Virus record (IMG/VR): IMGVR_UViG_3300027707_000050
Coordinates: 1 to 35,626 of that record
Direction: 5' to 3' (one strand)
DNA: 35,626 bases
Source of the DNA: a virus
Lineage: Duplodnaviria > Caudoviricetes
The position numbers were made by a program, and so were the translations under genes. The notes beneath the pieces were generated by a model. It did no database searches. It saw nothing but the letters and a program-made list of their open reading frames with translations, and was not told where the DNA came from. Shown in pieces: positions 8,832 to 25,013 of this stretch (the first letter of the stretch is position 1; each line of letters opens with the position of its first letter).

Positions 8832-8861
8832 AACTTGCCCCTCTCTGAATTTCGTTACAGA

Positions 8862-8873
8862 TATTATGACATA
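8862..8873. promoter_or_regulatory. 12-bp motif TATTATGACATA in divergent promoter region (copy 1)
   Basis: An identical copy is at 24971-24982, also between divergent genes. The minus strand reads TATGTCATAATA (CATAAT, -10-like). Confidence 0.55.
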
Positions 8874-8924
8874 CAAGTGCTTGTGGGACAGAAAAAACTA
8901 ATGTAGGGTTTATCGGAGGTTAAA

Positions 8925-10040
8925 ATGGCTGGAGCAGGAGTACGAGTATTTCAGGCAGGTGAAGTCCTGACGGCGACGTTGGTCAATACATACCTCCAAG
9001 ATCAGGTTGTGGCTCGCTTTGCTAGTGCCGCCGTTCGTGATGCCGCCTTTGGCGGTAGTGGGGAGCCAACGCTTGAAGAGGGCCGTGTTTGCTACTTGGA
9101 TTCGACCAACACCCTCCAGTACTACAGCGGCTCTGCCTGGGTTTCCATCAGTGCCGAAGCAGTAACCGGTGAAGTTCAAGCCAAGGGCGACTTGGTTGTT
9201 GGAACCGGATTAAACACAATCTCACGAGTGGCAGTTGGTGCAAATGACACAACCCTTGTCGCTGACTCAACAACTGCTACTGGGGTTGCTTGGAAGGCAG
9301 CACCTGTTGCGGCTGCCAACAGTATTACTTCTGCTCAAATTGTCACTGGCACAATTGTTGATGCAAACATCTCTGCTTCTGCGGCAATTGCTCTTTCTAA
9401 GCTTGCCACTGGAGCATTGCCAACGGCAATCACGGTCACATCGGCGAACATATCCGACTTGTCTATTGTTAATGCCGACATAAGTGCTTCGGCTGCGATT
9501 GTTGACACAAAACTTGCAACTATTTCAACGGCAGGAAAAGTGTCCAACTCTGCCACAACAGCCACCGACGCAAACACTGCTTCAGCAATTGTCGCTCGTG
9601 ATGCATCTGGAAACTTTATTGCTGGCAAAGCAACACTTGCAACGGCAGATATAAATACGGTTATAGAGACAGCAAATATTGTTGCATCTGCCTCAACTGG
9701 AACTATCAATATTGATTTCAGTACCAACCCAACGGTTTATTACACGAGTAATGCAACCAACGACTGGACAATTAATGTCCGTGGCACATCCAGTGTCACA
9801 TTAAATGACACCCTTTCAACAGGGCAAATTGCTACTGTAACCTTTCTGGCAACGATTGGAACGACGCAAAAAAGACCCACGGTATTCCAGGTCGATGGTT
9901 CTGCAGTGACACCAAAATGGATGGGTGGGACTGCACCAGCAACTGGAAACGCCAGTTCTATTGATGCTTACACGTTAGCAATTATCAAAACTGGTAGCGC
10001 CGCATTCACAGTGCTCGCAAGCCAGACGAAATTTGCGTAA
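8925..10040 (+). CDS. tail fibre-like structural protein
   Basis: GGAGG RBS. N-terminal F.AGEVLTA..VNTYL.DQ module, AKGDLVVGTG repeat unit, and an Ala/Thr/Ser-rich shaft shared with 22867..24453. Confidence 0.8.
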   Translation: MAGAGVRVFQAGEVLTATLVNTYLQDQVVARFASAAVRDAAFGGSGEPTLEEGRVCYLDSTNTLQYYSGSAWVSISAEAVTGEVQAKGDLVVGTGLNTISRVAVGANDTTLVADSTTATGVAWKAAPVAAANSITSAQIVTGTIVDANISASAAIALSKLATGALPTAITVTSANISDLSIVNADISASAAIVDTKLATISTAGKVSNSATTATDANTASAIVARDASGNFIAGKATLATADINTVIETANIVASASTGTINIDFSTNPTVYYTSNATNDWTINVRGTSSVTLNDTLSTGQIATVTFLATIGTTQKRPTVFQVDGSAVTPKWMGGTAPATGNASSIDAYTLAIIKTGSAAFTVLASQTKFA

Positions 10041-10046
10041 TGAACT

Positions 10047-11174
10047 ATGCCCTTCTTAAACCGTATTGGAAGCGGCTCAACTAACAAGTTTGGCTTCCGC
10101 ATGGGCTTCGTTCCTGGCGCACCTACATCTGTAACGGCGAGTCTTCCAAGTACATATGGCAATACCACTGCATTAGTCAGCTGGACGGCCCCCGTCATGT
10201 TGGGAAGCCCGGCATTGAACGATTATGTAATCCAGTATTCAAGTGACAGTGGTTCAACTTTTACAACATTCTCTGATGGGGTATCAACCTCAACTTCAGT
10301 GACTGTCACTGGTTTGACGAACGGATTTGCGTACGTATTTAGGGTCGCCGCAGTAAATACGATTGGCACGAGTGCATATTCTTCGGCGTCCAATTCCGTC
10401 ACGCCGCTACACAGCAAGATACCGACCCCCCTATTTACGATGGACGACGATACACAAGGTCGGGTAGGAATCGACTTTAGCAATTACTTGCAAACAGTTG
10501 ACCAAACATATGTTGCAAACCCTAGCGGTTTATATTTCTACAACTATTTTGACTGTGCTGGTGGCTTTTGCCCGAACGACACAAGTGGCGATAGTCAAGG
10601 CTGGACAGGACTTGGCTACAGTGTCTCTCGTTCTGCATATCTAAAAGTTCAAAGATTTGGCTATGCAGATTCAGACACCGTTTTCTGTTCGGAAACCTCA
10701 CCTCCTGAGCCTCCACCACCAGACCCATGTGCTGGCTCTCCTGCAGCAGGAACGGTCACTTCGGGGAACTACTGCAGCGGTACCACACTCGTGCGAAACG
10801 TATCAGATGGATGTAATGGCTCAACCGTTCAGACGGTGGAATCAAACAGCGCAACCTGTGGCGGTGTTCCACCCGACCCATGTGCTGGGGTGACATGCCC
10901 GGGAACTTGTGGAGACACAACGGGTTACACAGATGGTGGGATACAAACAGCGAATGACCCATTTGGTAACTGCCCTGGGTGCACGGGCACAACTTATAGG
11001 CAGTGGAATAGGGCATGCTGCGATAGTTTGGCATGTTGGACAGGTAATTGCGGAACATGCCCTCCCCCACCTTCCTGTGAAGGAAACTGCACTAATTGCG
11101 GTGAGCACTCGAGCATCCCTGGCGTATGTACAGATTTCTTTGGTGGATGTTCATGTTTCTACTATCAGGGCTAA
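10047..11174 (+). CDS. fibronectin type III domain protein with Pro-linked Cys-rich C-terminal modules
   Basis: PGAPTSV...VSWTAP...Y.IQYS...VTGLTNG..YVFRVAAVN.IG.SAYS is FN3. There are 23 Cys after the FN3 domain. Confidence 0.85.
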   Translation: MPFLNRIGSGSTNKFGFRMGFVPGAPTSVTASLPSTYGNTTALVSWTAPVMLGSPALNDYVIQYSSDSGSTFTTFSDGVSTSTSVTVTGLTNGFAYVFRVAAVNTIGTSAYSSASNSVTPLHSKIPTPLFTMDDDTQGRVGIDFSNYLQTVDQTYVANPSGLYFYNYFDCAGGFCPNDTSGDSQGWTGLGYSVSRSAYLKVQRFGYADSDTVFCSETSPPEPPPPDPCAGSPAAGTVTSGNYCSGTTLVRNVSDGCNGSTVQTVESNSATCGGVPPDPCAGVTCPGTCGDTTGYTDGGIQTANDPFGNCPGCTGTTYRQWNRACCDSLACWTGNCGTCPPPPSCEGNCTNCGEHSSIPGVCTDFFGGCSCFYYQG

Positions 11175-11217
11175 AAGGCGATAATATGGTGTCGAAATTA
11201 GAACAAAGGAGAAAAGT

Positions 11218-11439
11218 ATGAGCAAAATAAAGTTTGCTTTCGTTGTAGATGGTGATTTTGGTGGAGCACTTATAGTTTCAGAAACACACCCAAACCATGA
11301 ACTCTTGTGTGCCGTCATGAGAAGCGGTCCAGTAATTATTGAAATTCCAGAATCACACCCTAATTTTGATGAAATAACAAACGGTTGGACTTTTGATGGG
11401 ACAAATTGGAACCCACCAGCAGATCCATCGGAAGTCTGA
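11218..11439 (+). CDS. small hypothetical protein (tail-fibre associated type)
   Basis: AAGGAG RBS. Starts FAFVVDG and ends GWTFDGTNWNPP, a pattern seen in small genes following phage fibres. Confidence 0.7.
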   Translation: MSKIKFAFVVDGDFGGALIVSETHPNHELLCAVMRSGPVIIEIPESHPNFDEITNGWTFDGTNWNPPADPSEV

Positions 11440-11451
11440 TGGATTTTTTCT

Positions 11452-11682
11452 ATGACGAACGCTTGGCAGGAATATAAAAAGAAACTTGGTAACACACGTC
11501 CATGGGATGTAGTGAACCCCAATATTGAACATGTTTCCGAGGATATTGCATCATCTCGATATGCGATATGTGAAGCGTGCCCAAGTTTACTAAAGGCTAC
11601 CAAACAGTGCAAAGAGTGTGGTTGCTTTATGAAACTTAAAGTCAAACTCCCAGCAGCAGTATGTCCGCTCGGCAAATGGTAA
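11452..11682 (+). CDS. DUF6171-like Cys-rich small protein
   Basis: R..ICEACP.......QCKECGCFM..K.......CPLGKW signature. Confidence 0.8.
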   Translation: MTNAWQEYKKKLGNTRPWDVVNPNIEHVSEDIASSRYAICEACPSLLKATKQCKECGCFMKLKVKLPAAVCPLGKW

Positions 11683-11988
11683 TTCTAAATCAAGCAACTA
11701 AGTTTACAGAAAGTGTAGGAGTTTCATTAGCGACCAAGCCTTTTCTTGAACCATTTGATTACGGGATAAAACAACCAGTCCGTTTCGTCACCTGGAATAA
11801 TTACGTAATCACCAATTGATTCACCTGGAGCAAGTTTGTATCCTTTTGCTTCCCACTCCTCGGTCAAGCGCTTTTCATTTTCTCGGAATGTCTGTGACAT
11901 TTTGTTTTCCCTTTTGTTGATGGGTGGCACTTATCGTCTGATATCGGTGTTTGCCCACTCGGTAAGTGGTAATTCTAAATCAAGCAAC
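11677..11988 (+). repeat. 22-bp perfect direct repeat TGGTAATTCTAAATCAAGCAAC (11677-11698 and 11967-11988)
   Basis: Read directly from the sequence. Similarity extends about 18 bp upstream with synonymous differences. Confidence 0.9.
11727..11900 (-). CDS. small hypothetical protein between the direct repeats
   Basis: Likely start MSQTF (11900) after AAGGG. The ORF extends to 11930. Confidence 0.6.
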   Translation of the reverse strand: MSQTFRENEKRLTEEWEAKGYKLAPGESIGDYVIIPGDETDWLFYPVIKWFKKRLGR

Positions 11989-11993
11989 CAAAT

Positions 11994-12278
11994 TTATATA
12001 AAGTGCTTTGCAATAGCCGTGGTTGCCAGAATGATCCAACAGATATTAAACCAAATGATTGTCGGAAGAGTTTTGATGGTTGATGTAATAATCAAAGCAA
12101 GGCTTGATGCAAGGGCAAAAAGGTACATCCACCACCATTGTTTGTCAAAGATGAGACCTGGAACAATAATTGAAATCTTGGTCATGAAAGCCCAGGCCTC
12201 GATGGCGTTTACCTTGGTCCAGTAAGCCCTGTTACCCCAACGGCGCGTTACTTGCATGATTTCGGACGGTTTCAACAT
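11994..12278 (-). CDS. small membrane protein (about 3 TM)
   Basis: Hydrophobic, Trp-rich segments. Starts 3 nt after the upstream stop. Confidence 0.75.
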   Translation of the reverse strand: MLKPSEIMQVTRRWGNRAYWTKVNAIEAWAFMTKISIIVPGLIFDKQWWWMYLFALASSLALIITSTIKTLPTIIWFNICWIILATTAIAKHFI

Positions 12279-12281
12279 TGT

Positions 12282-13019
12282 CTACTCCTCTATATTCTTT
12301 CTTATTTCCTTTAGAACACGGGTTCTAAGTTGGGCATTGTTGAACATCTTATACTTCTCTGTCAATCTTGCAAGGAATCGTAAAGGACTAATGTGTACCA
12401 ATGACATGGCAAGGGTACTTAACTCTTCGGTTACATGATACCGATGCAGCCGTATGGGCCTGTCTGTGTGAAACTGAATATAACATAAAGCATCACCGGC
12501 ATTGACGTGTAGTGAAGTAACTCCACTCCACAGGTTGAACTCTATGTTCATTGGTCGATACCATTGGCCAATATCGTATTCTCCAGGAACAATCATTCCG
12601 TATTTGTGGCTGGTTGGCAACTCAAAATATGGAGCAGTCATACTTGCTATAACGCTTTCTGAAGAGAAGAACAATAAGCAATGGTGGTAATTGAAGTGCT
12701 CATTGTTTTCCATGGTCGGCCCGTGTAAGTGCTCCACGTGTGCCGGCAACTTTAGGTTTGGTTCATAAACGACATTTGCGCCATCCCAAGAAACCTTTGT
12801 TTCTTGTATGGTTCTGAAAACATACGTATGTTTCATCTTTTCGGACACAGCTGGGCAGTTTATGAAATTGGATCGTTCGGGGTCTTTTACTTGTTTTTCC
12901 AAGCACTCTTCGTATAGGGTTTTTGGAGAAGGGAACAGGTGGCTGATGTCTTGCGCTATGTTTGTTTGCATCCAATATGGCGCCCAATAAACATCAAGTG
13001 GTTCTAGTGTTTGCTTCAC
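12282..13019 (-). CDS. hypothetical protein, DUF6065-like, related to 15124..15981
   Basis: Contains NCPAV...YVF, PGEYDIGQWYRPMNIEF and GDALCYIQF, a dUTPase-like beta-clip pattern seen in phage oxygenase islands. Confidence 0.6.
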   Translation of the reverse strand: MKQTLEPLDVYWAPYWMQTNIAQDISHLFPSPKTLYEECLEKQVKDPERSNFINCPAVSEKMKHTYVFRTIQETKVSWDGANVVYEPNLKLPAHVEHLHGPTMENNEHFNYHHCLLFFSSESVIASMTAPYFELPTSHKYGMIVPGEYDIGQWYRPMNIEFNLWSGVTSLHVNAGDALCYIQFHTDRPIRLHRYHVTEELSTLAMSLVHISPLRFLARLTEKYKMFNNAQLRTRVLKEIRKNIEE

Positions 13020-13582
13020 TTAGCGCCCTCAATTCTGCTTTTGTGCTCTTCTAGCAAGTTTTGTGTTTTTTGTTTGGCTAATAAATTATTTTCGTGTGGG
13101 GTAATGCTACCAGTGATTGACCAGTGGTTTGGTTTTACATAATGGTAGAAGGCAACTTCAACAAATTTTATTGGGTCTTTAGTTGGGTATTTCGGTCGCC
13201 AGTGCAGTTGGTCTTCTCCCATATATAGCACGGCATCACCATCGGTCATGGAAAACTCGGTTCCGCTCACAACTAGTGGCCAGCCAATCGTTGAGCGTAA
13301 TTGAATGTCAAATGTGTATGCGCATGGATTTGAGTCCACGTGAGGCGGCACGTGCGGACTGCCATATCGTGTTGAGTACCTAACCCATTTTGCATATGTA
13401 AATACTAAGTCTTCCCCATATTGAATTTTCATCTCTTCTTCTATTTTGAAGTTATTAGGTAGATTGCATGATTTTCTACCCCAATCATCGCCGCCCCATA
13501 CTTCTGATTCGATTGATTCTCTTATTTCTGTGCACTCTATGGGTGACAAGAATTGGCTGACAAATTTACTCTGCATAAGCAA
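13016..13582 (-). CDS. 2OG-Fe(II) oxygenase
   Basis: PHVD (HxD)...WPL...GDAVLY.G....HWR facial triad. Confidence 0.8.
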   Translation of the reverse strand: MLMQSKFVSQFLSPIECTEIRESIESEVWGGDDWGRKSCNLPNNFKIEEEMKIQYGEDLVFTYAKWVRYSTRYGSPHVPPHVDSNPCAYTFDIQLRSTIGWPLVVSGTEFSMTDGDAVLYMGEDQLHWRPKYPTKDPIKFVEVAFYHYVKPNHWSITGSITPHENNLLAKQKTQNLLEEHKSRIEGAK

Positions 13583-14024
13583 TTCCAGTACCGTTATGCT
13601 TATTCATCCACGCTTTACAAAACGCAACGGAGCCCATGCAGTAAAAGCCTCTTGACCCGATTTGATATACCAAATTGGATTTCCATTTGATTGCATCGGT
13701 TATTAACCAATTAAGGGCTTGGGCGCTTATCACAACGCTGTCTGTCTCAATTGCTTGCGTGTAATCCATTCCTTCAAATACTTTGTATACAATAATTACC
13801 TTAGAGTGTTCTGGTTTTAACCATTCTGGAATGTGTAAGTCTCTTTTCCAAGAGCATTCAAACTCCCTACAAATAGGTGGTCGGTCTTGATATATCGTGC
13901 ACCCAGTATGTATAGACACATGTGGGCATGGTGACCCTTTCTGAACAACATGTTCATTGATAACAATATCCAAGTTGCCATCACAGCACTTAATGCACGT
14001 TCCGCAAGTTCGAGTGTTAATCAT
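13566..14024 (-). CDS. YkgJ/CxxCxxCC-type Zn/Fe-chelating protein
   Basis: CGTCIKCC...CPH.....CTIYQDRPPICREFEC.W. Confidence 0.85.
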   Translation of the reverse strand: MINTRTCGTCIKCCDGNLDIVINEHVVQKGSPCPHVSIHTGCTIYQDRPPICREFECSWKRDLHIPEWLKPEHSKVIIVYKVFEGMDYTQAIETDSVVISAQALNWLITDAIKWKSNLVYQIGSRGFYCMGSVAFCKAWMNKHNGTGIAYAE

Positions 14025-14027
14025 GTT

Positions 14028-14705
14028 TTAAAACTTGATGATAGTTGGCTCTATGGTTTGTGGGGGCGCGGCTGGAATGTCCTCAAGTCGGTTGGCGTAC
14101 ATAAATGTACTAATCATCCATTTTTCATCCGAGATGGGAACCATACCCATGTGTGGATGTGTCCAACTAGCAGGGAAAATTGCAATAGAACCCTGTTTGG
14201 CAGGGATTACGATGTCGTGCTCCGGAAACCCAGTACCACCGCCGACATCAATTGTGTTCAGGTACATTACAACCCCCAAAACTCGCTGATTGAGTGAACC
14301 GCTATTCCATGGAGCGCCATCGTAGTGACGTCTATAAAAATTGGTTCTCTGCTTGTAGTTCTGCAACCGATACCCGGTATCTATTAATTGTGGGCATAAA
14401 GCGTTTAGTTCGTAGATTTGCTCAACATATAAAGCAAGCGCCCCATACAGGGCATGTGTTATTTTTTCTTCATAATTCATAAAAGGTTCGGCAGGGATAC
14501 CTTTTTCGGCTATGTCTTTATGACCAAAATCAAAATCCATAGACGCTTTAATGTCCGCTTGGACGCCACCAATGGTTGGTCCTGGATAAAACAACTTGTC
14601 GTAGTGATACTTGCACTCATTAATTATTCCCACGCAAACTTCTTTTGGGATAATGTTTTCTACGACGGCAATACGGTGGGGCTTACCACCTATAAAAGTA
14701 AGCAT
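14028..14705 (-). CDS. 2OG-Fe(II) oxygenase, prolyl-4-hydroxylase-like
   Basis: HYD...RVLGVVMYLN....GGGTGF......P.QG.IAIFP..WTHPH.G......KW. Confidence 0.9.
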   Translation of the reverse strand: MLTFIGGKPHRIAVVENIIPKEVCVGIINECKYHYDKLFYPGPTIGGVQADIKASMDFDFGHKDIAEKGIPAEPFMNYEEKITHALYGALALYVEQIYELNALCPQLIDTGYRLQNYKQRTNFYRRHYDGAPWNSGSLNQRVLGVVMYLNTIDVGGGTGFPEHDIVIPAKQGSIAIFPASWTHPHMGMVPISDEKWMISTFMYANRLEDIPAAPPQTIEPTIIKF

Positions 14706-14714
14706 CCACCCCCC

Positions 14715-15131
14715 TTAGTTGTTTACGCTTATGGTCATTTCATCCAAAAGGTTATCACCATTAAAGCACTTCAAAACAAAATCTCCAGAAATTTCAATGC
14801 TTAACGGGATACCAATTCGGTGCTTGTCGTGGCGTACTGCTCGAACAGTGCTGCTGTTGTTTTTGCTCACCACCTGAAAGGACATAGAAGAGCAATCCAT
14901 AAAATCATTGAGATACATAATGGTAAAGGGGGAAGACACACCAACAGAAAAGTATGCAGGAACAAACCCAACATCTACGGGCACGGTTACAACCATGACT
15001 TCTTTTCTGTTGAAATCAATCTTTTCGGTTCTTGGGGAATCACCAATCTGAATTGGTAATAACCACTCTCCGGCTAGTACTTCGGCCTCGGCTAGTTCGT
15101 TTTCCGTGGGACAATATACAACCCTATCCAT
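14715..15131 (-). CDS. hypothetical protein
   Basis: Likely start MDRVVY (15131) overlaps the upstream stop. The ORF extends to 15218. Confidence 0.6.
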   Translation of the reverse strand: MDRVVYCPTENELAEAEVLAGEWLLPIQIGDSPRTEKIDFNRKEVMVVTVPVDVGFVPAYFSVGVSSPFTIMYLNDFMDCSSMSFQVVSKNNSSTVRAVRHDKHRIGIPLSIEISGDFVLKCFNGDNLLDEMTISVNN

Positions 15132-15981
15132 TATTGTTCTTTCGCAATTTTTTATCGTGTCTAGATTGCTCTCTTTTGTAAGAACCCTTCCAGTCAAAAC
15201 CTTGTTCAATATTGTCAAACCCTAACTTGTCAAGAAGTTTGTGGGTGGCTTCATCGCCTTTTAGTAATTCACTTGTGATTAAAGCGCTTTCCCTCTCAAA
15301 GGGGATAACATGCAACATAGGTGTTCCTTCGGCAATAGAGAAGGGCTGTGTTGTCGTAATATTCAAAACGATGTTGCAGTGATGGTAATAGTCTGTATGA
15401 ACAACGCCAGCCATTACAGAATAATTACTGTTAGGTTCCCATTGCGGCGCTATAAATAAGGACGAATAACCTGGTGCTGTCTTAAGCAACCACGGGTTTT
15501 GCAATTTTAGGTAATCTGACTGTTTCCTCTGCTTCATTGATGCCACAGGACATTCCCCTGCTTGACCATATCCAAATTGATTACGATCTACGTTTGCTTT
15601 GCTTATGAGTTGTTCATATGCCTTATTGTCTATTGGCTCAACTAAGTAAGACGGAGCATTGAAGCGAGCGTCCCAACTTGAATTTAGCTTTGAGACTGGT
15701 TCCCGAACATCCAATTGTGCCCATAGTGGGATGGTGTATCCGGTCCTCATGTAATCTGCAAGACCATAACATCTTCGCAATCCCAAATCCCCGTTAGCAA
15801 CTTCCTTGAACCAATCAGGTGTCTTTTTATTATTTCTGTAAATGGCTACCTTGGGGTGCCACAGAGTGTTTGATAAGGGGATGGCCAACAATTCATGCTT
15901 CTTTGGTATCGGTAGGCCTTCCCACATGTCTGCCTTGACCGTAACATGTTCGTTATTTTTTTTGTTTGAAAATAGACGCAT
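15124..15981 (-). CDS. hypothetical protein, DUF6065-like
   Basis: PDWFK...RRCYG..D.M..GYTIPLW, K..NPWLLKTAPGYSSLF, GVVHTD.Y and GTPMLHVIPF.R. Confidence 0.7.
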   Translation of the reverse strand: MRLFSNKKNNEHVTVKADMWEGLPIPKKHELLAIPLSNTLWHPKVAIYRNNKKTPDWFKEVANGDLGLRRCYGLADYMRTGYTIPLWAQLDVREPVSKLNSSWDARFNAPSYLVEPIDNKAYEQLISKANVDRNQFGYGQAGECPVASMKQRKQSDYLKLQNPWLLKTAPGYSSLFIAPQWEPNSNYSVMAGVVHTDYYHHCNIVLNITTTQPFSIAEGTPMLHVIPFERESALITSELLKGDEATHKLLDKLGFDNIEQGFDWKGSYKREQSRHDKKLRKNNNG

Positions 15982-17431
15982 GGTCTACCAATCCATTTCG
16001 CAATTGCTCACTCTTGAAGCCTGCCATTGACGCTGCCGCCCAATCCCTTGAACCAAAAGCATTTAGTTGTATTGTCGCCGCATCTGGGTTGAGTACGTTT
16101 TGTCCTTGAGCAACATGCCACAAATGTGCTGAATGAAATAGGCCATATCCACTGTCTGGAAAATCAGTTATGGAAGGCACTCTTTCTTTCCACAATTCTA
16201 GGAGATTTTGTAATGTCTCGGGAAGTTCGGCATTTTGTTGTGCTTTCCACATTTCCGAATCAGTTCTATCAGAAACGTAATGTAACGAGATCATAACTAA
16301 AATGTTATCCATTAGTTCTGCTAACTTCTTATTGTAATCTTTTGTTTGAGCCTTGCTTCCCTCATTGAAGGTAGGAAGTAGTTGCCCAATCATTCTGGCT
16401 TGTTGAATTGTTGTAGAGATAGAAGTTGCTTCTAAAGGTTCTACAAAAGAACCTGCCAGCCCTACTGCCACACAATTGTGTTTTAAGCCCTGCTTATAGT
16501 AGCCGGACTTAAATTTAATAATCCTTGGGGTAAGTTCTTTGCCAATAAGATTTGATACTTCTTTGACCGCTTGATCATCTGAGCAAAAATCAGATGCATA
16601 AATGTACCCGTTGCCACGTCTTTCTTGCGTAGGTATTTCGAACACCCACCCACTAGACAGGGCTCGCGCACGGGTGTATGGTCGTATTTCCCCAGAAGGG
16701 TCTGACTCTGTTTGAAACACCGCGGCAGAATCTGTTGGAAGGTACTTTCGGTAACTTACAAAATCATCTTCTTTCACAATTTGAGACATTATGGCTCTTC
16801 TAAAGCCTGATGCATCTACAAAGAAATCGGCAAGGATTGAACCATTCTTGATCAAACCAACTTCGGTTATAAAACCAGAAACTGTGTCTTGTTTTACGCT
16901 GGTAACTTCGTCATCAATAAATACAACATCCCTTGTTTTGGCAACAACCGTAAGATAGTTGTTTAGTTTTTTGGTGTCAAAGTGAAACTGGTTTACAGAG
17001 TCATGTTGGTTTGCGCCCGTGACTTTTACTATGTTGTTGTTGTATAGGTGGGATATCATTGAACTTGTTAGCAATCTATTGTTTTCTAGACAAAACGCAT
17101 AGTTTGCCGCAAAATCATTAGGACCCATTCCTGGGAGACTTACGCTATGAAAATAGTCTGGCGTATGGTTGGTCCAATTCTCAAACCTAATTCCATACTT
17201 GTGGGTGGCGGCACACTCAGAAACCATTTCATTAACATTGATGTTGTATGGAGTCTGAAAGCCCTGTCTCCAATGTTCGGTCGAACCTTCACCGACTCCA
17301 ATTATGCCAATAGATGAAGATGATATTACTGTTATTTTGTATAGTGGAAACATTCCACGAAGCATTATGGCCGTGATTAGTCCAGCAGTACCCGACCCAA
17401 CAATACAGACGTGCTTTTGCATGTCAAACAA
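15953..17431 (-). CDS. flavin-dependent (tryptophan halogenase family) halogenase
   Basis: GSGTAG FAD motif, IGVGEGST, ATHKYGIRFENW (Lys in the PrnA K79 context), FFVDASGF, GWVFEIP (WxWxIP variant) and FVEPLEATSI. Confidence 0.93.
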   Translation of the reverse strand: MFDMQKHVCIVGSGTAGLITAIMLRGMFPLYKITVISSSSIGIIGVGEGSTEHWRQGFQTPYNINVNEMVSECAATHKYGIRFENWTNHTPDYFHSVSLPGMGPNDFAANYAFCLENNRLLTSSMISHLYNNNIVKVTGANQHDSVNQFHFDTKKLNNYLTVVAKTRDVVFIDDEVTSVKQDTVSGFITEVGLIKNGSILADFFVDASGFRRAIMSQIVKEDDFVSYRKYLPTDSAAVFQTESDPSGEIRPYTRARALSSGWVFEIPTQERRGNGYIYASDFCSDDQAVKEVSNLIGKELTPRIIKFKSGYYKQGLKHNCVAVGLAGSFVEPLEATSISTTIQQARMIGQLLPTFNEGSKAQTKDYNKKLAELMDNILVMISLHYVSDRTDSEMWKAQQNAELPETLQNLLELWKERVPSITDFPDSGYGLFHSAHLWHVAQGQNVLNPDAATIQLNAFGSRDWAAASMAGFKSEQLRNGLVDHASIFKQKK

Positions 17432-18029
17432 ACCATGAAACGAATGAATATTTTATTTCGTCTGTAATATCCCCCACAGAGTTTGCGTAGTGGAAGTACG
17501 GAAAGTTGGATGGAAACAACAAAACTGCTCCAGCCTTTGGTTTTACAGTTATATCCAAGATTGGAAATACCAATTCCCCACCTGCATAGCCATCATTGAG
17601 ATACCCAATAACACTAAGAACACGCTGGTTGGATGGGTGATGGTCAACATGACCACGGTATTCTGCACCACGCCCGTATTTAAGAACACGGTAACCTTCA
17701 TCCTTGCTTAGGTTGAGTGCGTATTCGTTTCTGTAGTGCCACACGGCCTTGTCTGTGTCGGACCGAATTTTGTCCCAAGAATTACGAATTGGAATCAAGC
17801 GGTCAATTGCAAGTTCTGACTCAGCAACATTTAGTGGGGATAGTTCACACCCCAAAGAGGAACGGTAGTTGTCTGCTCTGAGGTTTTCGCCAGAGCCAAC
17901 AAGTGTTCTAAACCAGGATAGATAGCCCCAATCGTTCTTGCATTCTTCCTCAAGCAAGTTTATGAAATTACCTGGAGTAAACACATTTTCATATAGGGAT
18001 ACACAATTACCGAGATCAATTGGTTTCAT
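17424..18029 (-). CDS. 2OG-Fe(II) oxygenase, prolyl-4-hydroxylase-like
   Basis: LKY..G.EY.GHVD...RVLSVIGYLNDGYAGGELVF...LFPSNFPYFH......KYSFVSW. Confidence 0.9.
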   Translation of the reverse strand: MKPIDLGNCVSLYENVFTPGNFINLLEEECKNDWGYLSWFRTLVGSGENLRADNYRSSLGCELSPLNVAESELAIDRLIPIRNSWDKIRSDTDKAVWHYRNEYALNLSKDEGYRVLKYGRGAEYRGHVDHHPSNQRVLSVIGYLNDGYAGGELVFPILDITVKPKAGAVLLFPSNFPYFHYANSVGDITDEIKYSFVSWFV

Positions 18030-18092
18030 GTGATTATCCTACAATATCTGTGTTGGGAAAACAGAAGGTTTGCAGTCTGTGATATTGCCTTT

Positions 18093-18329
18093 TTAGAAAG
18101 ATGCCAACCATTGAATCTGGTCCCAAATGGTCTTCAGGTTTAATTTGTAACCATACAGTGGGTCTGATTCAGCAGTCTCGGGAACTACGAATCCTGCATA
18201 GTCAAAGGTTGCTGGGTCTACCTGTAGTTTGAGTGCGGCATCATAGAGGTCTCGCTCAAGTTGATACTTGACTCGTGCCTTTGCTTCAACTAAATCATTT
18301 GCATCCAGTGTGGTAAATCCATAAGCCAT
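18093..18329 (-). CDS. small hypothetical protein
   Basis: Likely start MAYGF (18329) after CAGGAG RBS. The ORF extends to 18377. Confidence 0.65.
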   Translation of the reverse strand: MAYGFTTLDANDLVEAKARVKYQLERDLYDAALKLQVDPATFDYAGFVVPETAESDPLYGYKLNLKTIWDQIQWLASF

Positions 18330-18375
18330 GGCTAATTCTCCTGAGGTTTCGGGGTTGTCATTTTGACGATAGGTC

Positions 18376-18381
18376 ATTATA
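18376..18381 (-). promoter_or_regulatory. consensus -10 box TATAAT upstream of the small gene and enzyme operon
   Basis: The minus strand reads aatgTATAATgacc just after the stop of the His-rich gene. Confidence 0.5.
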
Positions 18382-18391
18382 CATTACTTTC

Positions 18392-19672
18392 TTAGTTGTC
18401 TATGTCTCGTACGAGGGTTGTATCTGAAGATGCAATGTGTGTGCTTAAACTACGTGTCATCACGATTAGTGAGCCTGCACTACCAGGGTTGCCTGCACTG
18501 CCAGGATTTCCGGATGCTCCAGCGTTTCCTGAACCTCCAGCATTTGCAGTTCCACCTGCTCCACCTGGATAGGCAGGGTTATGCGTGGCTGGAGTTGGGT
18601 GCGTTGTGTAATGATGATTAACATTCCCAGGGTGTGCATTTCCAGGGTGTGAAAAAGCATTTCCGGGATGTGCACTTCCAGGGTGGTGGTGGTGGTGGCC
18701 AGGGTTATGGTGTCCAGGGTGGTGTCCGTTACACCCATATTTACTGTGTACTGAACAGTTGGCTGGCGTGTGGTGTGCCGCTTCGCCGGTGCAGCAACCA
18801 TCGGGGTTGTGACCACCTGGGTTGTGACCAGAACCACCTGGGTTGTGACCACCTGGGTTATGAGAAGATGCGTGACCATGTCCAACAGGGTTTGAATGGT
18901 TGGCTGCGGCAATACTTGTACCAGCGTTTCCTGAAGAACCAGCGTTTCCACTACCACCGGGATTGCCACCTGCTCCGGGATTGCCACCTGTTCCAGATGT
19001 TCCAACACTAACAAAAGTACCCGAACCAACAATGGTCTTAGCGATAACAACCACAGAGCCTCCACCTACTCCATGTGTCCCCTTGATTCCTTTGGCACCG
19101 CCAGTTCCCGCCGCACCGCCAGTTCCTGCTGTTCCAGGGTTTCCTGCGCCCGAACCCCCGCCCGAACCTGCCGCTCCAGCATTTGCGGTTCCAGCAGCGC
19201 CAGCATTTCCAGCGGCACCATCTGTTCCGTCAGCACCATCACTACCAGGTGCTCCCACAAACCAACGATTCAATGTACTAGATGATTGATAAACACCATA
19301 TACAAGGGCTTCGTAATCTTTAACTGCGCCAATAGCCAATGAGCCACCTGCACCAATTGACTCTGCTGCGCTATACCCATCACTTGCACCAAGGCGTGTC
19401 ATCACCGAACCAGCAAGTACTCCTGTTGTCATGCTTGTTCCAGCAGGCATACCGACAGTGCCATTATTTGTTAATGTATTTTTTACAAAGATTTTAAATC
19501 CGTTTGTAAATAAAGTAATGGAACTGTTTACCGTTAGTGCTTCATAATACATATCACGAGATAACGATGTATTTGTGGAGACAACGACTGTCCCATCTAA
19601 ACCATTGCCAAAAATCTTGTCTGTTCCTGTTTTTTGAACTGGTGCAGGTTTGAGTCTATTTATTTTAGCCAT
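18392..19672 (-). CDS. glycine-rich adhesin-like protein with His/Asn/Pro/Gly-rich insertion
   Basis: The N-terminal domain is paralogous to 19674..20408. GxxGxx runs flank a 113-aa segment with 26 His and 4 Cys. Confidence 0.85.
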   Translation of the reverse strand: MAKINRLKPAPVQKTGTDKIFGNGLDGTVVVSTNTSLSRDMYYEALTVNSSITLFTNGFKIFVKNTLTNNGTVGMPAGTSMTTGVLAGSVMTRLGASDGYSAAESIGAGGSLAIGAVKDYEALVYGVYQSSSTLNRWFVGAPGSDGADGTDGAAGNAGAAGTANAGAAGSGGGSGAGNPGTAGTGGAAGTGGAKGIKGTHGVGGGSVVVIAKTIVGSGTFVSVGTSGTGGNPGAGGNPGGSGNAGSSGNAGTSIAAANHSNPVGHGHASSHNPGGHNPGGSGHNPGGHNPDGCCTGEAAHHTPANCSVHSKYGCNGHHPGHHNPGHHHHHPGSAHPGNAFSHPGNAHPGNVNHHYTTHPTPATHNPAYPGGAGGTANAGGSGNAGASGNPGSAGNPGSAGSLIVMTRSLSTHIASSDTTLVRDIDN

Positions 19673-19673
19673 G

Positions 19674-20408
19674 TCAGGCTACCTGCATGTAATTAACAGT
19701 TCCGCTCGCGCAGGACGTTCCACCAGTGACATCTGTGGATACACCTGAATTAAGTACTGATGCTGATGACACAATCAAAATTACTCCACCGCCTCCGCCA
19801 CCAGAGCCAGAGGTTCCTGGTGCTTTGAAGTAAGCAGTACCAGAAGATACCGTAATGTATCGAGCAGCGATAATAACTACACCACCACCCGCTCCCGATG
19901 CACCACCTGCGCCACCACGAAGGAATGTGGGTGTCGTTGTTGAAGCCGAGACTGCCCAACCCTTGATTGCTTGTAGTGGTTGTTGATAGTAGGCAGAACC
20001 ACCAAGGCCAGCCACAGGTGCTGTAGCAGTTTGTGAAGCGCTGGCACCACCGAGACTATGTATGACAGCCGTGGTTGCTGCACCACCTTGTGCAATGGAT
20101 CCAGCAGTGGACTGACCTGTTGTGTACCCGACAATTGCACCCGAGGCAAGGGTTAATGTTCCCTGAACAAACACTCTGTAACCACCACAATTTAATGTAA
20201 TTCCTTCACCGATGGTGAGATTATTGTAAAACTTGTCAACAGTCAATGTGGTATTAGCCGAAATTGTGACATCGCCATCAATACCAGTTCCGTAAACAGG
20301 GTCAGGAAGGTTCAGGTACGTTGCGGTAGCAACCAGTGCGCTGGAAATGGATGAAGTTCCTTCAGCCGTTGATATTCCAGTTCCGTTCATCCGAACGAAA
20401 GATGCCAC
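19674..20408 (-). CDS. glycine-rich structural/adhesin-like protein
   Basis: YGTGIDGDVTISANTTL...YNNLTI, plus GGAGGASGAGGGVVII and GGGGGGGVILIV glycine-rich motifs. Confidence 0.8.
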   Translation of the reverse strand: MASFVRMNGTGISTAEGTSSISSALVATATYLNLPDPVYGTGIDGDVTISANTTLTVDKFYNNLTIGEGITLNCGGYRVFVQGTLTLASGAIVGYTTGQSTAGSIAQGGAATTAVIHSLGGASASQTATAPVAGLGGSAYYQQPLQAIKGWAVSASTTTPTFLRGGAGGASGAGGGVVIIAARYITVSSGTAYFKAPGTSGSGGGGGGVILIVSSASVLNSGVSTDVTGGTSCASGTVNYMQVA

Positions 20409-20770
20409 TACGCCTCCTCGATACCTGTGAGGATAATGTTTACAGCACTGTTTGCGCTGGCGTATCCAATAATTTGATCACTAGTGGTCGCACTTGCGGC
20501 TGCTCCAGTGTTGTTGAGCACCAATAACGTAGACATCATAACTGTTTCGTTGGCAGCCAAAGACAAGGCCGTAAGGAAGTTTTGTGTTGTTGCCTGTGCT
20601 ACGTTGAGTGGCTTTAGCACCAAAGTCACCGTCACAGCACTAGCAGTGGTGTTACAGAGCACAATCTGCTTAACAATTGCTGTTGTGCTAATTGGTACCG
20701 TGTATAGGACCGAAGAAGATGTTGTTGTCAACTGGGTTGGCCCAGCAAGACGCTTTTGTGTAAATGCCAT
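20408..20770 (-). CDS. putative virion structural protein
   Basis: Beta-rich (LYTVP..TTAIVKQIVLCNT). Translationally coupled to both neighbours. Confidence 0.7.
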   Translation of the reverse strand: MAFTQKRLAGPTQLTTTSSSVLYTVPISTTAIVKQIVLCNTTASAVTVTLVLKPLNVAQATTQNFLTALSLAANETVMMSTLLVLNNTGAAASATTSDQIIGYASANSAVNIILTGIEEA

Positions 20771-22398
20771 TAGATGACCTCCATGTAAAGTTGAATTAGA
20801 CTATCACGCACTGCTGTCGTAAGCGCATAACCAGATATTGATGCACCACTAGGAATTGTGACCGTGCCAGTAAATGTTGGTGAGGCCAACGGAGCAATTA
20901 CGGTGGTATCAACCGCTACTGTCGGGGTGGCACTTTCTCCTGAGTTATTTGTGAGCGTTACTCCGGTGCCAGCAACAAGAGACGTTACGTAGCTACCGGT
21001 TGTGTCGGTACCAAGAGTAATTGGCTGGTCAACCCAAGCCGTGCCGTTGTACATCAAGAAATCTTTGTCGGCTGCTGCAGTAATTGTTACGCCAGTAATG
21101 TCATCAATGTTGCTAATGATTGGAACTGCGTCGTTAACCCATGCTGTGCCATTCCACTTCAGGAACTGACCCGAAGTGGCTGTTGTAATTGTTACATCAC
21201 CAATGGCATCAAGGGTTGCTGGAGTTAGAGATGCCGCATATGATTCTGTGGCTATATCCGCATAGGCTGACCCGTCGGTTGTTAATTCCCATTTATCTGA
21301 GGTTTCGTTCCAGCGGAGTGCCACGTTCGCTGATGAGCCTCGCTCAACTTCAATTCCTGCATGCTGACCGTTAACGGGCGCACCAGTTGCATTGTTATTA
21401 AGAACGATAATGTTGTCGTCAATAGTCAAGGTTTCGGTATTGATTGAGGTTGTGGTTCCAGAAACAGTCAAGTTCCCAGAAACGGTCAAGTCATTGGCAG
21501 TAGCAGTGCCCGTGAAGGTTGGTGAAGCAAGTGGAGCAAAACCTGAAATAGAAGCACCAGAAGGAATCGTTACGGTTCCAGTAAATGTCGGCGAAGCAAG
21601 GTTGGCTTTTAAGTCAAGAGCCGTTTGTTGAGCCGTGGAAACCGGCTTTGCAGTATCGGCAGTGTTGTCCACCGAGCCAAGACCCACCATTGTTTTGGTG
21701 ATTCCAGAAACCGTTCCCGTAAATGTTGGCGAAGCGAGGTTTGCCTTGAGATCTAGTGCAGTCTGTTGAGCAGTTGAAACTGGCTTGGCTGTGTCTGCGG
21801 TGTTGTCCACATTGCCAAGACCCACATCGCCTTTTACCAATCCCGAAGGTGAAGTAATTGTTTTATTGGTAAGGGTCTGCGAACCAGTAGTGGTCACCAA
21901 AATTGAAGTATCGGCAATACCGTGAATACTTGTCGTATCTGCCTCGTGGTTAGAGAGCGCCGTGGCAGCATTGGTTGCGGCAGTTGACGCTGCGCCATAG
22001 GCATCAAAAGTATTTGTTGTTACAGCAACGGTAGGTGTTGCGCCTTCGCCAGAGTTATTTGTAAGAGTGATTCCTGTGCCAGCAACAAGAGATTCGACAT
22101 ACGAACCGATGGTGTCTGTTGAAAGGTTTACGGCATCATTAATCCATGCTGTGCCATTCCAACGAAGGAAGTCTCCGCTTGCGGCACTAGTAATAGTGAC
22201 ATCCTTGAGATCGTTGAGATTGCCTTCGCTTAATTCTGCGGTAATTGAGTAAGGAAGGGCAGTCCATGCATTGGTGTTGTTACCAATCTTGAATTTGCCA
22301 GTATCTGTTTCATAACCCATTTCACCAGTCGTGAGGGTTGGGTTGTTTGATGTCCAGTTGGCTGCAGTATCTCGTCTAAGCCTAATTCGTGTTGACAT
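20770..22398 (-). CDS. tail fibre protein with Mtd/hyaluronidase-type N-terminal domain
   Basis: RIRLRRDTAANWTSNNPTL..GEMGYETDTGKFKIG. Repeated L.DVTIT.A.SG.FL.WNGTAW.N and ASPTFTGTV modules. Confidence 0.88.
   Translation of the reverse strand: MSTRIRLRRDTAANWTSNNPTLTTGEMGYETDTGKFKIGNNTNAWTALPYSITAELSEGNLNDLKDVTITSAASGDFLRWNGTAWINDAVNLSTDTIGSYVESLVAGTGITLTNNSGEGATPTVAVTTNTFDAYGAASTAATNAATALSNHEADTTSIHGIADTSILVTTTGSQTLTNKTITSPSGLVKGDVGLGNVDNTADTAKPVSTAQQTALDLKANLASPTFTGTVSGITKTMVGLGSVDNTADTAKPVSTAQQTALDLKANLASPTFTGTVTIPSGASISGFAPLASPTFTGTATANDLTVSGNLTVSGTTTSINTETLTIDDNIIVLNNNATGAPVNGQHAGIEVERGSSANVALRWNETSDKWELTTDGSAYADIATESYAASLTPATLDAIGDVTITTATSGQFLKWNGTAWVNDAVPIISNIDDITGVTITAAADKDFLMYNGTAWVDQPITLGTDTTGSYVTSLVAGTGVTLTNNSGESATPTVAVDTTVIAPLASPTFTGTVTIPSGASISGYALTTAVRDSLIQLYMEVI
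21571..21825 (-). repeat. intragenic duplication of a 39-aa fibre module (21571-21687 and 21709-21825)
   Basis: VGLG[N/S]VDNTADTAKPVSTAQQTALDLKANLASPTFTGTV occurs twice, with many synonymous differences. Confidence 0.9.
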
Positions 22399-24471: not shown

Positions 24472-24927
24472 TTATGAGAGGTATGCTTTCCCAGTAAAGG
24501 CACTGGAAAAGTTTATCACTAGTTCGTTATCTGACGAATGAACAATGTCACCCATAACGACGTTTTCTGCGCTGTCAACAACCGAGACACCACCTGGGCG
24601 ATAACCGAGGTTATGTGTGATAGTCCATGCCGCCGAAGAACTTGACTGCGTAAAGGTGAAAGTGGTTGCCTTGTTGATCCACGCCGAACCGTTATATACC
24701 AATCCTTGACCAGAAGCGGCGCTAGTGATTGTTACGTCGCCAAGGTCGTTAAGTGTGGATGACGATGCTGTGGTGAAGTAATAAAGAGCACTCCAGACGG
24801 ATGTTCCGTCGCCTATCTTGAATTTTCCGGTGTCGGTTTCAAATCCAGCCTCACCAGCGAACAAAACTGGGTTTGCGGCAGTCCATTGAGCAGCAGTTGA
24901 GCGCCTGAGTTTGATTCTGTATGACAT
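24472..24927 (-). CDS. short fibre protein with Mtd-type N-terminal domain
   Basis: RIKLRRSTAAQWTAANPVL.AGEAGFETDTGKFKIGDG. The C-terminal W.ITHNLG domain is shared with 25523..26101. Confidence 0.85.
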   Translation of the reverse strand: MSYRIKLRRSTAAQWTAANPVLFAGEAGFETDTGKFKIGDGTSVWSALYYFTTASSSTLNDLGDVTITSAASGQGLVYNGSAWINKATTFTFTQSSSSAAWTITHNLGYRPGGVSVVDSAENVVMGDIVHSSDNELVINFSSAFTGKAYLS

Positions 24928-24970
24928 CGCACCGTCTTTGCATGGTTGTATCGGAATACGAACTTCGTAC

Positions 24971-24982
24971 TATTATGACATA
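24971..24982. promoter_or_regulatory. 12-bp motif TATTATGACATA in divergent promoter region (copy 2)
   Basis: Identical to 8862-8873. Confidence 0.55.
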
Positions 24983-25013
24983 TGAGAAGGCTGGTTATGG
25001 TAGGATTTTTGTT

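What the first reader, a model, noticed from the sequence alone, without database searches (positions are those of the whole stretch)
10047..19672. Candidate phage system for chemically decorating virion adhesins: halogenase/oxygenase operon bracketed by two low-complexity substrate-like proteins
Seen: a tightly coupled minus-strand run (18029 to 11994) of a flavin-dependent halogenase, three 2OG-Fe(II) oxygenases, a CxxCxxCC protein, two related DUF6065-like proteins and a membrane protein. It sits inside the fibre-gene region, not among metabolic genes. Upstream is a Gly-rich protein with HNPGG/HPGN repeats. Converging from the other side is an FN3 protein with poly-Pro-linked Cys modules. 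Known: 2OG-Fe(II) enzymes hydroxylate Pro, Asn, Asp and His in proteins; flavin halogenases can act on peptide-bound aromatic residues; both families occur in aquatic phages with mostly unknown substrates. Inference: this is a RiPP-like tailoring cassette whose substrates are the adjacent fibre tips, altering receptor binding, stability or shielding.
Basis: partly seen in the sequence, partly recalled or inferred. Interest (0 to 1): 0.9.

Follow-up and report, generated by a model that had tools for sequence, protein, structure and literature searches.

The report
Swappable enzymes decorate phage adhesin loop
An uncultured tailed phage carries a halogenase, three oxygenases and two dUTPase-shaped proteins directly behind a histidine-packed, predicted adhesin gene, and relatives whose loop lacks the histidines carry a protein-type sugar transferase or a methyltransferase in the halogenase's place, so these enzymes likely decorate that loop chemically, which would give viral halogenases a testable natural target.

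Summary
The cassette is real and tightly coupled, and it is tied to one of the two proposed substrates. The Gly/His protein (18392-19672) is a predicted beta-solenoid/polyglycine scaffold with a hypervariable His-rich loop. Among 97 representative relatives, 94 keep a 2OG oxygenase and 94 a dUTPase-fold Cys protein. The enzyme just before the dUTPase-fold gene follows loop chemistry: halogenase in 61 of 61 His-rich loops; GT60-type polypeptide GlcNAc transferase in 11 of 11 His-free loops; FkbM-type methyltransferase in 21 Asn/Tyr-rich loops. These are only about three clades, so the pattern is not statistically independent. Tyr-rich loops lack the halogenase, which points to His rather than Tyr or Trp. 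The FN3/Cys protein (10047-11174) is a separate, convergent module: a complete relative genome has it with its own oxygenase and no halogenase. No chemistry or virion location is shown. The enzyme set resembles the Syn9 cyanophage cluster (Iyer 2010), which was read there as metabolite synthesis. This scan found the halogenase and GT60 versions before, separately, on other DNA; here they are shown to be alternatives on one scaffold family.

The parts
20770..22398 (-). 542-aa fibre protein with Mtd_N anchor; last fibre gene before the module
   Evidence: Pfam Mtd_N E 1e-13; tail-fibre PHROGs
20408..20770 (-). 120-aa conserved protein in front of the scaffold genes; possible adaptor (inferred from position only)
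   Evidence: Cluster of 140 proteins in 101 loci; no solved relative
19674..20408 (-). 244-aa Gly-rich paralogue of the His-loop protein, without the large loop
   Evidence: Shares the N-terminal solenoid motif; adjacent in nearly all loci
18392..19672 (-). 426-aa candidate substrate: predicted beta-solenoid closed by both termini, Gly-X-X arms, hypervariable His-rich loop
   Evidence: AlphaFold model: scaffold blocks pLDDT 70-92, loop about 30; beta-helix matches, S16 gp38 Z 5.4 at rank 37
18569..18898 (-). His/Asn/Pro loop (residues 259-368): HNPGG repeats, a 4-Cys centre, then HPG(N) repeats
   Evidence: 26 His, 15 Pro, 13 Asn, 3 Tyr, 0 Trp in 110 aa; 75 of 110 identical to the nearest relative against 292 of 316 in the scaffold
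18093..18377 (-). 94-aa helical protein; possible assembly chaperone (inferred)
   Evidence: 35 of 47 representative loci; alignment; no meaningful PDB match
17424..18029 (-). 2OG-Fe(II) oxygenase, prolyl-4-hydroxylase-like (core enzyme)
   Evidence: PF13640 E 4e-12; nearest solved chains are prolyl 4-hydroxylases, E 6e-8; H127, D129 and H180 in 42 of 42
15953..17431 (-). Flavin-dependent halogenase (PF04820) without the free-Trp-binding motifs
   Evidence: E 3e-96; K78 and E334 in 46 of 46; alignment to solved halogenases
15124..15981 (-). dUTPase-fold protein with conserved C71 and C144 (DUF6065-like), core partner
   Evidence: Foldseek to dUTPases E 6.5e-4, prob 1.0; profile to PDB dUTPases E 0.006; 94 of 97 loci
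14715..15131 (-). 138-aa protein of unknown family
   Evidence: 74 of 97 loci; Atlas best 0.78, lead only
14028..14705 (-). Second prolyl-4-hydroxylase-like 2OG oxygenase (accessory)
   Evidence: PF13640 E 1.5e-8; P4H E 1e-5; 26 of 47 loci
13566..14024 (-). CxxCxxCC-like Cys protein (accessory)
   Evidence: PF03692 below cut-off; 8 of 47 loci
13016..13582 (-). Third oxygenase-type protein, HxD...H (accessory)
   Evidence: PHROG 2954; invariant H81, D83, H127; 20 of 47 loci
12282..13019 (-). Second DUF6065-like protein (accessory)
   Evidence: Atlas 0.97; 8 of 47 loci
11994..12278 (-). 94-aa hydrophobic membrane-type protein that usually ends the cassette
   Evidence: Sequence; 30 of 47 loci; no Pfam, PHROG or NCBIfam hit
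10047..11174 (+). FN3 + poly-Pro + Cys-rich tip protein of a SEPARATE convergent module (8925-11682: tail gene, FN3, 73-aa gene, DUF6171)
11452..11682 (+). DUF6171 Cys protein of the FN3 module
   Evidence: PF19668 E 4e-6; follows FN3 homologues
11659..12005 (.). 57-nt direct repeat (11659-11715 and 11949-12005, 84%) duplicating the DUF6171 3' end at the junction of the two modules; likely recombination scar

Best explanation
The enzymes are inherited as one unit with the His-loop gene and likely modify that protein's loop after translation, before the predicted adhesin is built into the virion. Shown: co-orientation and tight spacing, a conserved scaffold with a hypervariable loop, intact catalytic motifs, near-obligate linkage, and an enzyme swap that tracks loop chemistry. 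Inferred, step by step: (1) 18392-19672 is a gp38-like adhesin at a fibre tip. (2) The prolyl-4-hydroxylase-like oxygenases hydroxylate Pro, possibly also Asn or His, in its NPG/HPG repeats. (3) The halogenase, fed reduced flavin by a host reductase, halogenates His rings (Tyr less likely), which would change their charge and metal binding. (4) The dUTPase-fold Cys protein is a shared partner that presents the loop or keeps the enzymes reduced, because it stays when the enzyme in front of it changes. (5) The result is chemical diversification or stiffening of the receptor-contacting loop.
For: Linkage, both ways. 25 of 28 halogenase loci have the His-loop gene within 4 kb upstream; of the other three, one is cut by the contig end and two are distant (38-39% identity) enzymes. 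In loci reached through the scaffold rather than the halogenase, 57 of 57 His-rich representatives have the halogenase. L024 and L025 carry a tandem second copy of scaffold genes plus oxygenase plus halogenase. Of 28 genome-contig loci, only the two with a long loop and enough flank (L118, L120) have the cassette; scaffold homologues with a short insert show no cassette hit, though several contigs are short. Swap: halogenase in 61 of 61 loops with 10% or more His, and GT60-type or FkbM-type genes in 0 of these 61; GT60-type in 11 of 11 His-free loops; FkbM-type in the 21 Asn/Tyr-rich loci. The gene just before the first dUTPase-fold gene is the halogenase in 59 of 62 halogenase loci, PF11397 above cut-off in 11 of 11, and PF05050 at E<=0.01 in 16 of 21. 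PF04820 is absent from three records of the His-poor clade that are at least 90% complete (positive control). GT60 members are polypeptide GlcNAc transferases, and Gnt1 needs prior prolyl hydroxylation (PMC6939170, passages). Both Pfam-positive oxygenases are nearest to peptidyl prolyl 4-hydroxylases. The halogenase lacks the Trp1/2/4 free-Trp motifs (PMC8269204, passages).
Against: No biochemical, proteomic or structural proof exists. The halogenase-less loci are one clade of 32 plus one truncated locus: two changes on the tree, 2 independent pairs, sign test not significant. Three His-poor loops (5-8% His: L051, L120, L148) keep the halogenase. The 10% His threshold was chosen after seeing the data. 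Accessory-enzyme correlations (second oxygenase with HN[PA] density, raw p 1e-8) lose support once relatedness is counted (2-4 independent pairs). The fold match to gp38 is weak (Z 5.4, rank 37; Foldseek found nothing at E<=0.001), and the loop is unmodelled (pLDDT about 30). Pelagibacter phage HTVC008M has its halogenase between the terminase genes, not behind such a gene, so not all viral halogenases follow this layout. Each scan kept only the best 80 of 207-457 relatives.
Confidence: 0.66

Rival explanations
1. The enzymes make or alter a small metabolite in the infected host (auxiliary metabolic genes), as proposed for the cyanophage Syn9 cluster, and sit among fibre genes for regulatory or historical reasons.
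For: The same enzyme set (tandem dioxygenases, Trp halogenases, dUTPase-fold Cys protein) was read this way by Iyer et al. 2010 (PMC2938197, passages). Sullivan et al. 2010 tie phage 2OG enzymes to host 2OG and nitrogen control (PMC3037559, passages). HTVC008M has the halogenase away from such a gene.
Against: No peptide synthetase or precursor pathway among the 41 window proteins scanned. It does not predict replacement of the halogenase by a polypeptide GlcNAc transferase exactly where the loop loses His, nor joint duplication with the loop gene.
Confidence: 0.12
2. The cassette modifies virion or host-surface proteins more broadly: the FN3/Cys protein, the loop-less paralogue or upstream fibres, not mainly the His loop.
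For: The FN3 protein has Pro runs, and 8 of its 9 relative loci have a 2OG oxygenase a few genes downstream (the ninth ends at the gene). The window copy has none of its own, so it could borrow the cassette's hydroxylases. The convergent layout recurs in 7 of 97 loci.
Against: 0 of 28 halogenase loci carry it. The nearest relative (95% identical halogenase) has other genes after the cassette. A complete 169-kb genome has the FN3 module and no PF04820. Enzyme content tracks the loop.
Confidence: 0.12
3. Linkage is shared descent in a fibre-gene island, with no enzyme-substrate relation.
For: Only about three clades define the swap. Distance correlations between scaffold and enzymes (Spearman 0.61-0.77) are of the same order as among other neighbours (0.26-0.77).
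Against: The block persists in different gene settings and gene orders, upstream, downstream and inverted (L051, L158), is duplicated as a unit, and is absent beside loop-less homologues.
Confidence: 0.06
4. The dUTPase-fold proteins and oxygenases act on nucleotides or DNA (base modification).
For: dUTPase fold; 2OG enzymes include base hydroxylases (PMC2938197).
Against: The first Asp of dUTPase motif III (recalled as catalytic) is His or Asn here. The oxygenases are nearest to prolyl hydroxylases. The genes are coupled to fibre genes.
Confidence: 0.03

Closest known systems
Syn9-type cyanophage cluster of tandem dioxygenases, Trp halogenases and a dUTPase-fold Cys protein (Iyer et al. 2010, PMC2938197; passages read)
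   Same: Same three enzyme kinds in one phage gene run
   Different: Here it is a WhiB-bearing, probably actinobacterial phage, with a fixed upstream hypervariable-loop gene and a swappable enzyme slot. The passages read propose secondary metabolites for the phage clusters, and tail-collar or collagen-like substrates only for bacterial beta-hydroxylase/sulfotransferase operons.
Skp1 prolyl hydroxylation plus GT60 GlcNAc transfer in Dictyostelium and Toxoplasma (PhyA, Gnt1; PMC6939170, passages)
   Same: Prolyl-hydroxylase-type enzyme plus a GT60-family transferase, the pairing found in the His-free relatives of this module
   Different: Eukaryotic, one substrate residue; the window itself has a halogenase and no GT60
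gp38 adhesins of T-even phages such as S16 (PMC6851490, passages; PDB 6F45)
   Same: Beta-helix whose turns extend into glycine-rich polyglycine arms with hypervariable distal loops
   Different: One very long (50-400 aa) loop instead of short segments; no three-Trp attachment domain; fold match weak (Z 5.4); no tailoring enzymes mentioned in the passages read
VirX1, flavin halogenase of a cyanophage (PDB 6QGM; Gkotsi 2019 seen only as a reference entry, paper not held)
   Same: Viral PF04820 enzyme; E 2.5e-34 to the window enzyme
   Different: The most distant of 30 solved matches; that its natural substrate is unknown is recalled, not read
Viral prolyl 4-hydroxylase of Chlorella virus PBCV-1 (cited in PMC9301287, passage)
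   Same: A viral enzyme reported to hydroxylate Pro in viral protein sequences; that paper calls the use of phage P4H cryptic
   Different: Eukaryotic virus; no halogenase cassette

Membership tests
Flavin-dependent halogenase (PF04820) | Profile match above cut-off and GxGxxG FAD motif | tested here: met
   323 bits against 21; three Gly in 46 of 46
Flavin-dependent halogenase (PF04820) | Catalytic Lys and the Glu of the halide loop | tested here: met
   K78 and E334 align with solved halogenases; 46 of 46
Flavin-dependent halogenase (PF04820) | WxWxIP motif (recalled as the mark separating halogenases from monooxygenases) | tested here: inconclusive
   The window has WVFEIP; 33 of the 45 homologues listed have W and 12 have F
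Flavin-dependent halogenase (PF04820) | Halogenation activity | not testable with these tools
   Needs an assay
Free-tryptophan halogenases (groups A and B of PMC8269204) | Trp1, Trp2 and Trp4 substrate motifs | tested here: not met
   STEHW and HSV stand at the Trp1 and Trp2 positions, and there is no Trp4-like motif
Prolyl-4-hydroxylase-like 2OG-Fe(II) oxygenases | HxD...H iron triad and 2OG-binding Lys; nearest solved relatives are P4H | tested here: met
   17424: H127, D129, H180 in 42 of 42 and K193 in 95%; P4H E 6e-8 and 1e-5
Prolyl-4-hydroxylase-like 2OG-Fe(II) oxygenases | Hydroxylation of peptidyl Pro | not testable with these tools
   Needs LC-MS/MS
Trimeric dUTPase | dUTPase fold | tested here: met
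   Foldseek E 6.5e-4, prob 1.0
Trimeric dUTPase | First Asp of motif III (recalled as catalytic) | tested here: not met
   His or Asn in that place in the listed variants; only the second Asp (D197) is invariant
Syn9-type dioxygenase/halogenase cluster | Several distinct dioxygenases, a halogenase and a dUTPase-fold Cys protein in one run | tested here: met
Syn9-type dioxygenase/halogenase cluster | MINA/No66-type JmjC member | tested here: not met
   None in the window; a JmjC_2 match occurs in 5 of 47 relatives
RiPP gene cluster | Short leader-core precursor peptide released by proteolysis | tested here: not met
   The candidate substrate is a 426-aa protein with the loop inside a scaffold closed by both termini; no peptidase in the cassette
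RiPP gene cluster | RiPP recognition element | tested here: inconclusive
   No Pfam or NCBIfam hit, but small unassigned proteins remain
gp38-type adhesin | Beta-helix with polyglycine extensions | tested here: inconclusive
   Model fits; Z 5.4, rmsd 5.5, 128 aligned, rank 37
gp38-type adhesin | N-terminal helical attachment domain with three Trp | tested here: not met
   A single Trp, W137
gp38-type adhesin | Present on the virion and binds the receptor | not testable with these tools
   No cultured phage matches the protein

The most novel reading that the evidence does not exclude
Aquatic phages run a modular post-translational 'paint shop' for their adhesin: a fixed core (prolyl-hydroxylase-like oxygenase plus dUTPase-fold presenter) with a plug-in enzyme matched to the loop. 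In the His-rich form the plug-in is a flavin enzyme that halogenates peptidyl histidines on the virion's receptor-binding loop, tuning its metal binding and host recognition.
Probability: 0.33. Interest if true: 0.92.

Novelty: new variant of a known kind. Interest (0 to 1): 0.7.

Why it matters
2OG-Fe(II) oxygenases and halogenases are common genes in aquatic phages (76 and 20 of 153 cyanophage genomes in PMC10452541, table passage) and are usually counted as host-metabolism genes. If this reading holds, part of them are virion-tailoring enzymes. That would change auxiliary-metabolic-gene tallies, give DUF6065 a role, add halogenated and hydroxylated receptor loops as a chemical layer of host-range variation, and supply a candidate protein-histidine halogenase. 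Each step can be tested by co-expression and mass spectrometry.

Tried and rejected
(1) A complex prediction of the 120-aa protein (3 copies) with residues 1-230 of the His-loop protein gave no answer (score 0.02); it is not used either way. (2) Foldseek of the His-loop model found nothing at E<=0.001; VIA best Z 8.1 (bactofilin) reflects only a beta-solenoid. (3) Co-variation of accessory enzymes with loop motifs was strong in raw tests but not after counting relatedness; it is not claimed. (4) 'Two related DUF6065 proteins': hhalign E 0.28; kept as a loose label only. (5) A DUF6171-oxygenase fusion behind the repeat remnant was looked for in 12 loci and not found. (6) Likeness of the 94-aa protein to the Pam3 fibre chaperone (PMC9608196, abstract): PDB searches gave only ankyrin and coiled-coil noise. 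(7) Promoter-like sites were fewer than in shuffles (17 against a mean of 23.9). (8) No cultured phage matches the His-loop protein. (9) L096/L146 as a clean negative was set aside: its contig starts at the module, is 23% complete, and its relative L051 has the cassette upstream. (10) Literature searches listed no paper whose title or abstract opening describes this pairing (two returned nothing); subscription papers are mostly not held, and no supplements were read (Iyer's supplement may list further neighbourhoods).

Full report
Setting. The window is a whole 35,626-base virus record. It encodes WhiB (E 3.5e-15), a VanY-type endolysin, baseplate J and Mtd_N-anchored fibres, so it is a tailed phage, probably of Actinobacteria (inference from WhiB). 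An identical stretch lies in L016/L029. The cassette has GC 0.41-0.44, against 0.47-0.50 in the flanking structural genes.

Observation. From the fibre gene 20770-22398 to the membrane gene 11994-12278, 14 genes run on the minus strand with overlaps or gaps of at most 63 nt. The halogenase and two oxygenases pass Pfam cut-offs. The third oxygenase has an invariant HxD...H. The CxxCxxCC and DUF6065 labels are below cut-off. 15124-15981 folds like a dUTPase with conserved C71 and C144, and lacks the first motif-III Asp (the role of that Asp is recalled). 12282-13019 is DUF6065-like by the Atlas only.

The candidate substrate. 18392-19672 has 26 His in residues 259-368 and 2 elsewhere. AlphaFold, on a 17-row alignment, gives a beta-solenoid closed by both termini, Gly-rich arms and an unresolved loop (mean pLDDT 57; loop about 30). 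This matches the gp38 plan of a beta-helix whose turns extend into polyglycine arms with hypervariable loops (PMC6851490, passages). The structural match is weak (Z 5.4, rank 37; no Foldseek hit), and the three-Trp attachment domain is absent. Against the nearest relative, the loop is 75 of 110 identical and the scaffold 292 of 316. Across relatives the loop varies freely in length and sequence.

Linkage. The halogenase scan gave 28 loci, 25 of them with the loop gene within 4 kb upstream. Scaffold scans of viral and metagenome contigs kept the best 80 of 379, 207, 384 and 457 relatives. 297 full-length proteins were reduced to 105 representatives. One was dropped for a missing C-terminus, and 7 for under 6 kb of downstream DNA (3 His-rich, 4 His-poor), leaving 97. 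Of these, 94 have a 2OG oxygenase, 94 the dUTPase-fold gene and 64 the halogenase within 9 kb. L024 and L025 hold a tandem second copy of scaffold genes plus oxygenase plus halogenase. In genome contigs, only L118 and L120 of 28 loci have both a long loop and the cassette; scaffold homologues with a short insert show no cassette hit, though several contigs are short.

The swap. Loops with 10% or more His have the halogenase in 61 of 61 cases (57 of 57 among loci reached without the halogenase scan); loops under 10% have it in 3 of 36. The gene just before the first dUTPase-fold gene is the halogenase in 59 of 62 halogenase loci. In 11 of 11 His-free loops it is a PF11397 GlcNAc transferase above cut-off. 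In the 21 Asn/Tyr-rich loops it is a 231-238-aa protein that matches FkbM PF05050 in 16 of 21. Profiles of these two replacements hit 0 of the 61 His-rich loci; 8 of the Asn/Tyr loci also carry a GT60-type gene. PF04820 is absent from 9 of 9 records of the His-poor clade, three of them at least 90% complete, while the control record L001 scores E 2e-100. GT60 enzymes are polypeptide GlcNAc transferases, and Gnt1 acts on hydroxyproline made by a prolyl hydroxylase (PMC6939170; PMC3188802; passages). This is the best argument that the cassette works on a protein. Halogenase-less loops are richer in Tyr (median 17.8% against 4%) and similar in Trp, and 28 of 64 halogenase-linked loops have no Trp, so His is the likeliest target.

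Limits. The halogenase-less set is one clade of 32 plus one truncated locus; there are 2 independent pairs and the sign test is not significant. Three His-poor loops keep the enzyme. The threshold was set after seeing the data. Correlations of accessory enzymes with loop motifs do not survive a relatedness check. HTVC008M places its halogenase between terminase genes, and S-H38 some 6.6 kb after a tail-fibre gene. The 79 cultured-phage records that match the halogenase are all below 60% identity, and none matches the loop protein.

The enzymes. The halogenase keeps GxGxxG, K78 and E334 in 46 of 46 homologues; it has WVFEIP where most relatives have WxWxIP, and it lacks the free-Trp motifs tabulated in PMC8269204 (passages). 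A non-halogenating oxidation stays possible: there are weak NCBIfam hits, far below cut-off, to the protein-modifying flavoenzymes QhpG and LodB. No flavin reductase was found among 41 window proteins. Both Pfam-positive oxygenases are nearest to prolyl 4-hydroxylases.

The FN3/Cys protein is a second module: tail gene, FN3 with poly-Pro and a variable Cys tip, a small or GNAT-like gene, and DUF6171. In 8 of 9 relative loci it is followed by its own 2OG oxygenase, and none of the 9 shows a halogenase. A complete 169-kb genome with it has no PF04820. It is near the His-loop gene in 7 of 97 loci. In the window a 57-nt repeat duplicates the DUF6171 3' end at the junction; the module's own oxygenases are missing, so borrowing from the cassette is possible but unsupported.

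Comparison and novelty. The enzyme set is the Syn9-type cluster of Iyer et al. 2010 (passages), which they read as metabolite synthesis. It works like a RiPP tailoring locus or the Skp1 pathway but is not a RiPP. My searches listed nothing describing the pairing; most subscription papers and all supplements were unseen. Earlier notes of this scan report the halogenase form and the GT60 form on other DNA. They are not independent evidence. One gave the lead to test His loss, which held in direction here but with three exceptions and few independent events. Verdict: a new variant of a known kind; mechanism confidence 0.66; interest 0.7.

Noticed in passing
window 11659-11715 and 11949-12005: 57-nt direct repeat (84%) duplicating the DUF6171 3' end; between the copies lies a 67-aa minus-strand ORF (11727-11930) with homologues at the cassette end in L040, L041 and L048.
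   Followed up: partly
window 8925-11682 (+); L107-L115, L036, L039, L043, L044: A second portable module: FN3 protein with a poly-Pro stalk and hypervariable Cys-rich tip, then a small or GNAT-like gene, DUF6171 and its own 2OG oxygenases; a candidate second tailoring or folding system.
   Followed up: partly
L203:9944-18765; L259; L358; L220: His-free versions of the module with GT60-type GlcNAc transferases (two in L203) and two or three dUTPase-fold genes; the L203 loop is an Arg/Glu/Asn repeat.
   Followed up: yes
L162:5403-14591 and relatives: Asn/Tyr/Ser-repeat loops with a central cluster of His-x-His motifs (possible metal knot), an FkbM-type methyltransferase, a pullulanase-associated-domain protein ending in a helical part like the 94-aa gene, and a 4Fe-4S ferredoxin.
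   Followed up: partly
L024:7113-21443, L025: Tandem duplication of the whole module with two different loops, each with its own halogenase.
   Followed up: partly
L004, L042-L045: Relatives add a JmjC_2-type dioxygenase and a 2OG-FeII_Oxy_5 enzyme to the cassette; JmjC_2 is recalled to include histidine hydroxylases.
   Followed up: no
L158-L161; L051: The enzyme block is inverted and convergent on the loop gene in L158-L161, and lies upstream of it in L051.
   Followed up: no
L107:6690-12243; L115:4096-10497: Arrays of five or six long 2OG oxygenases with a glutathione-peroxidase-like gene near FN3/Cys modules.
   Followed up: no
window 20770-20800 (end of the fibre gene) and relatives: Fibre genes directly before the 120-aa gene often end in a short conserved peptide with MEV, a possible docking tag.
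   Followed up: no
window 24921-25511 (+): A lone plus-strand 196-aa acidic ORF inside the minus-strand fibre block, found only in the identical contig among the first 143 loci.
   Followed up: no
window 5199-8876 (-): A 1225-aa protein without a Pfam or PHROG assignment between the fibre region and the lysis genes; partial homologues follow the cassette in many relatives.
   Followed up: no
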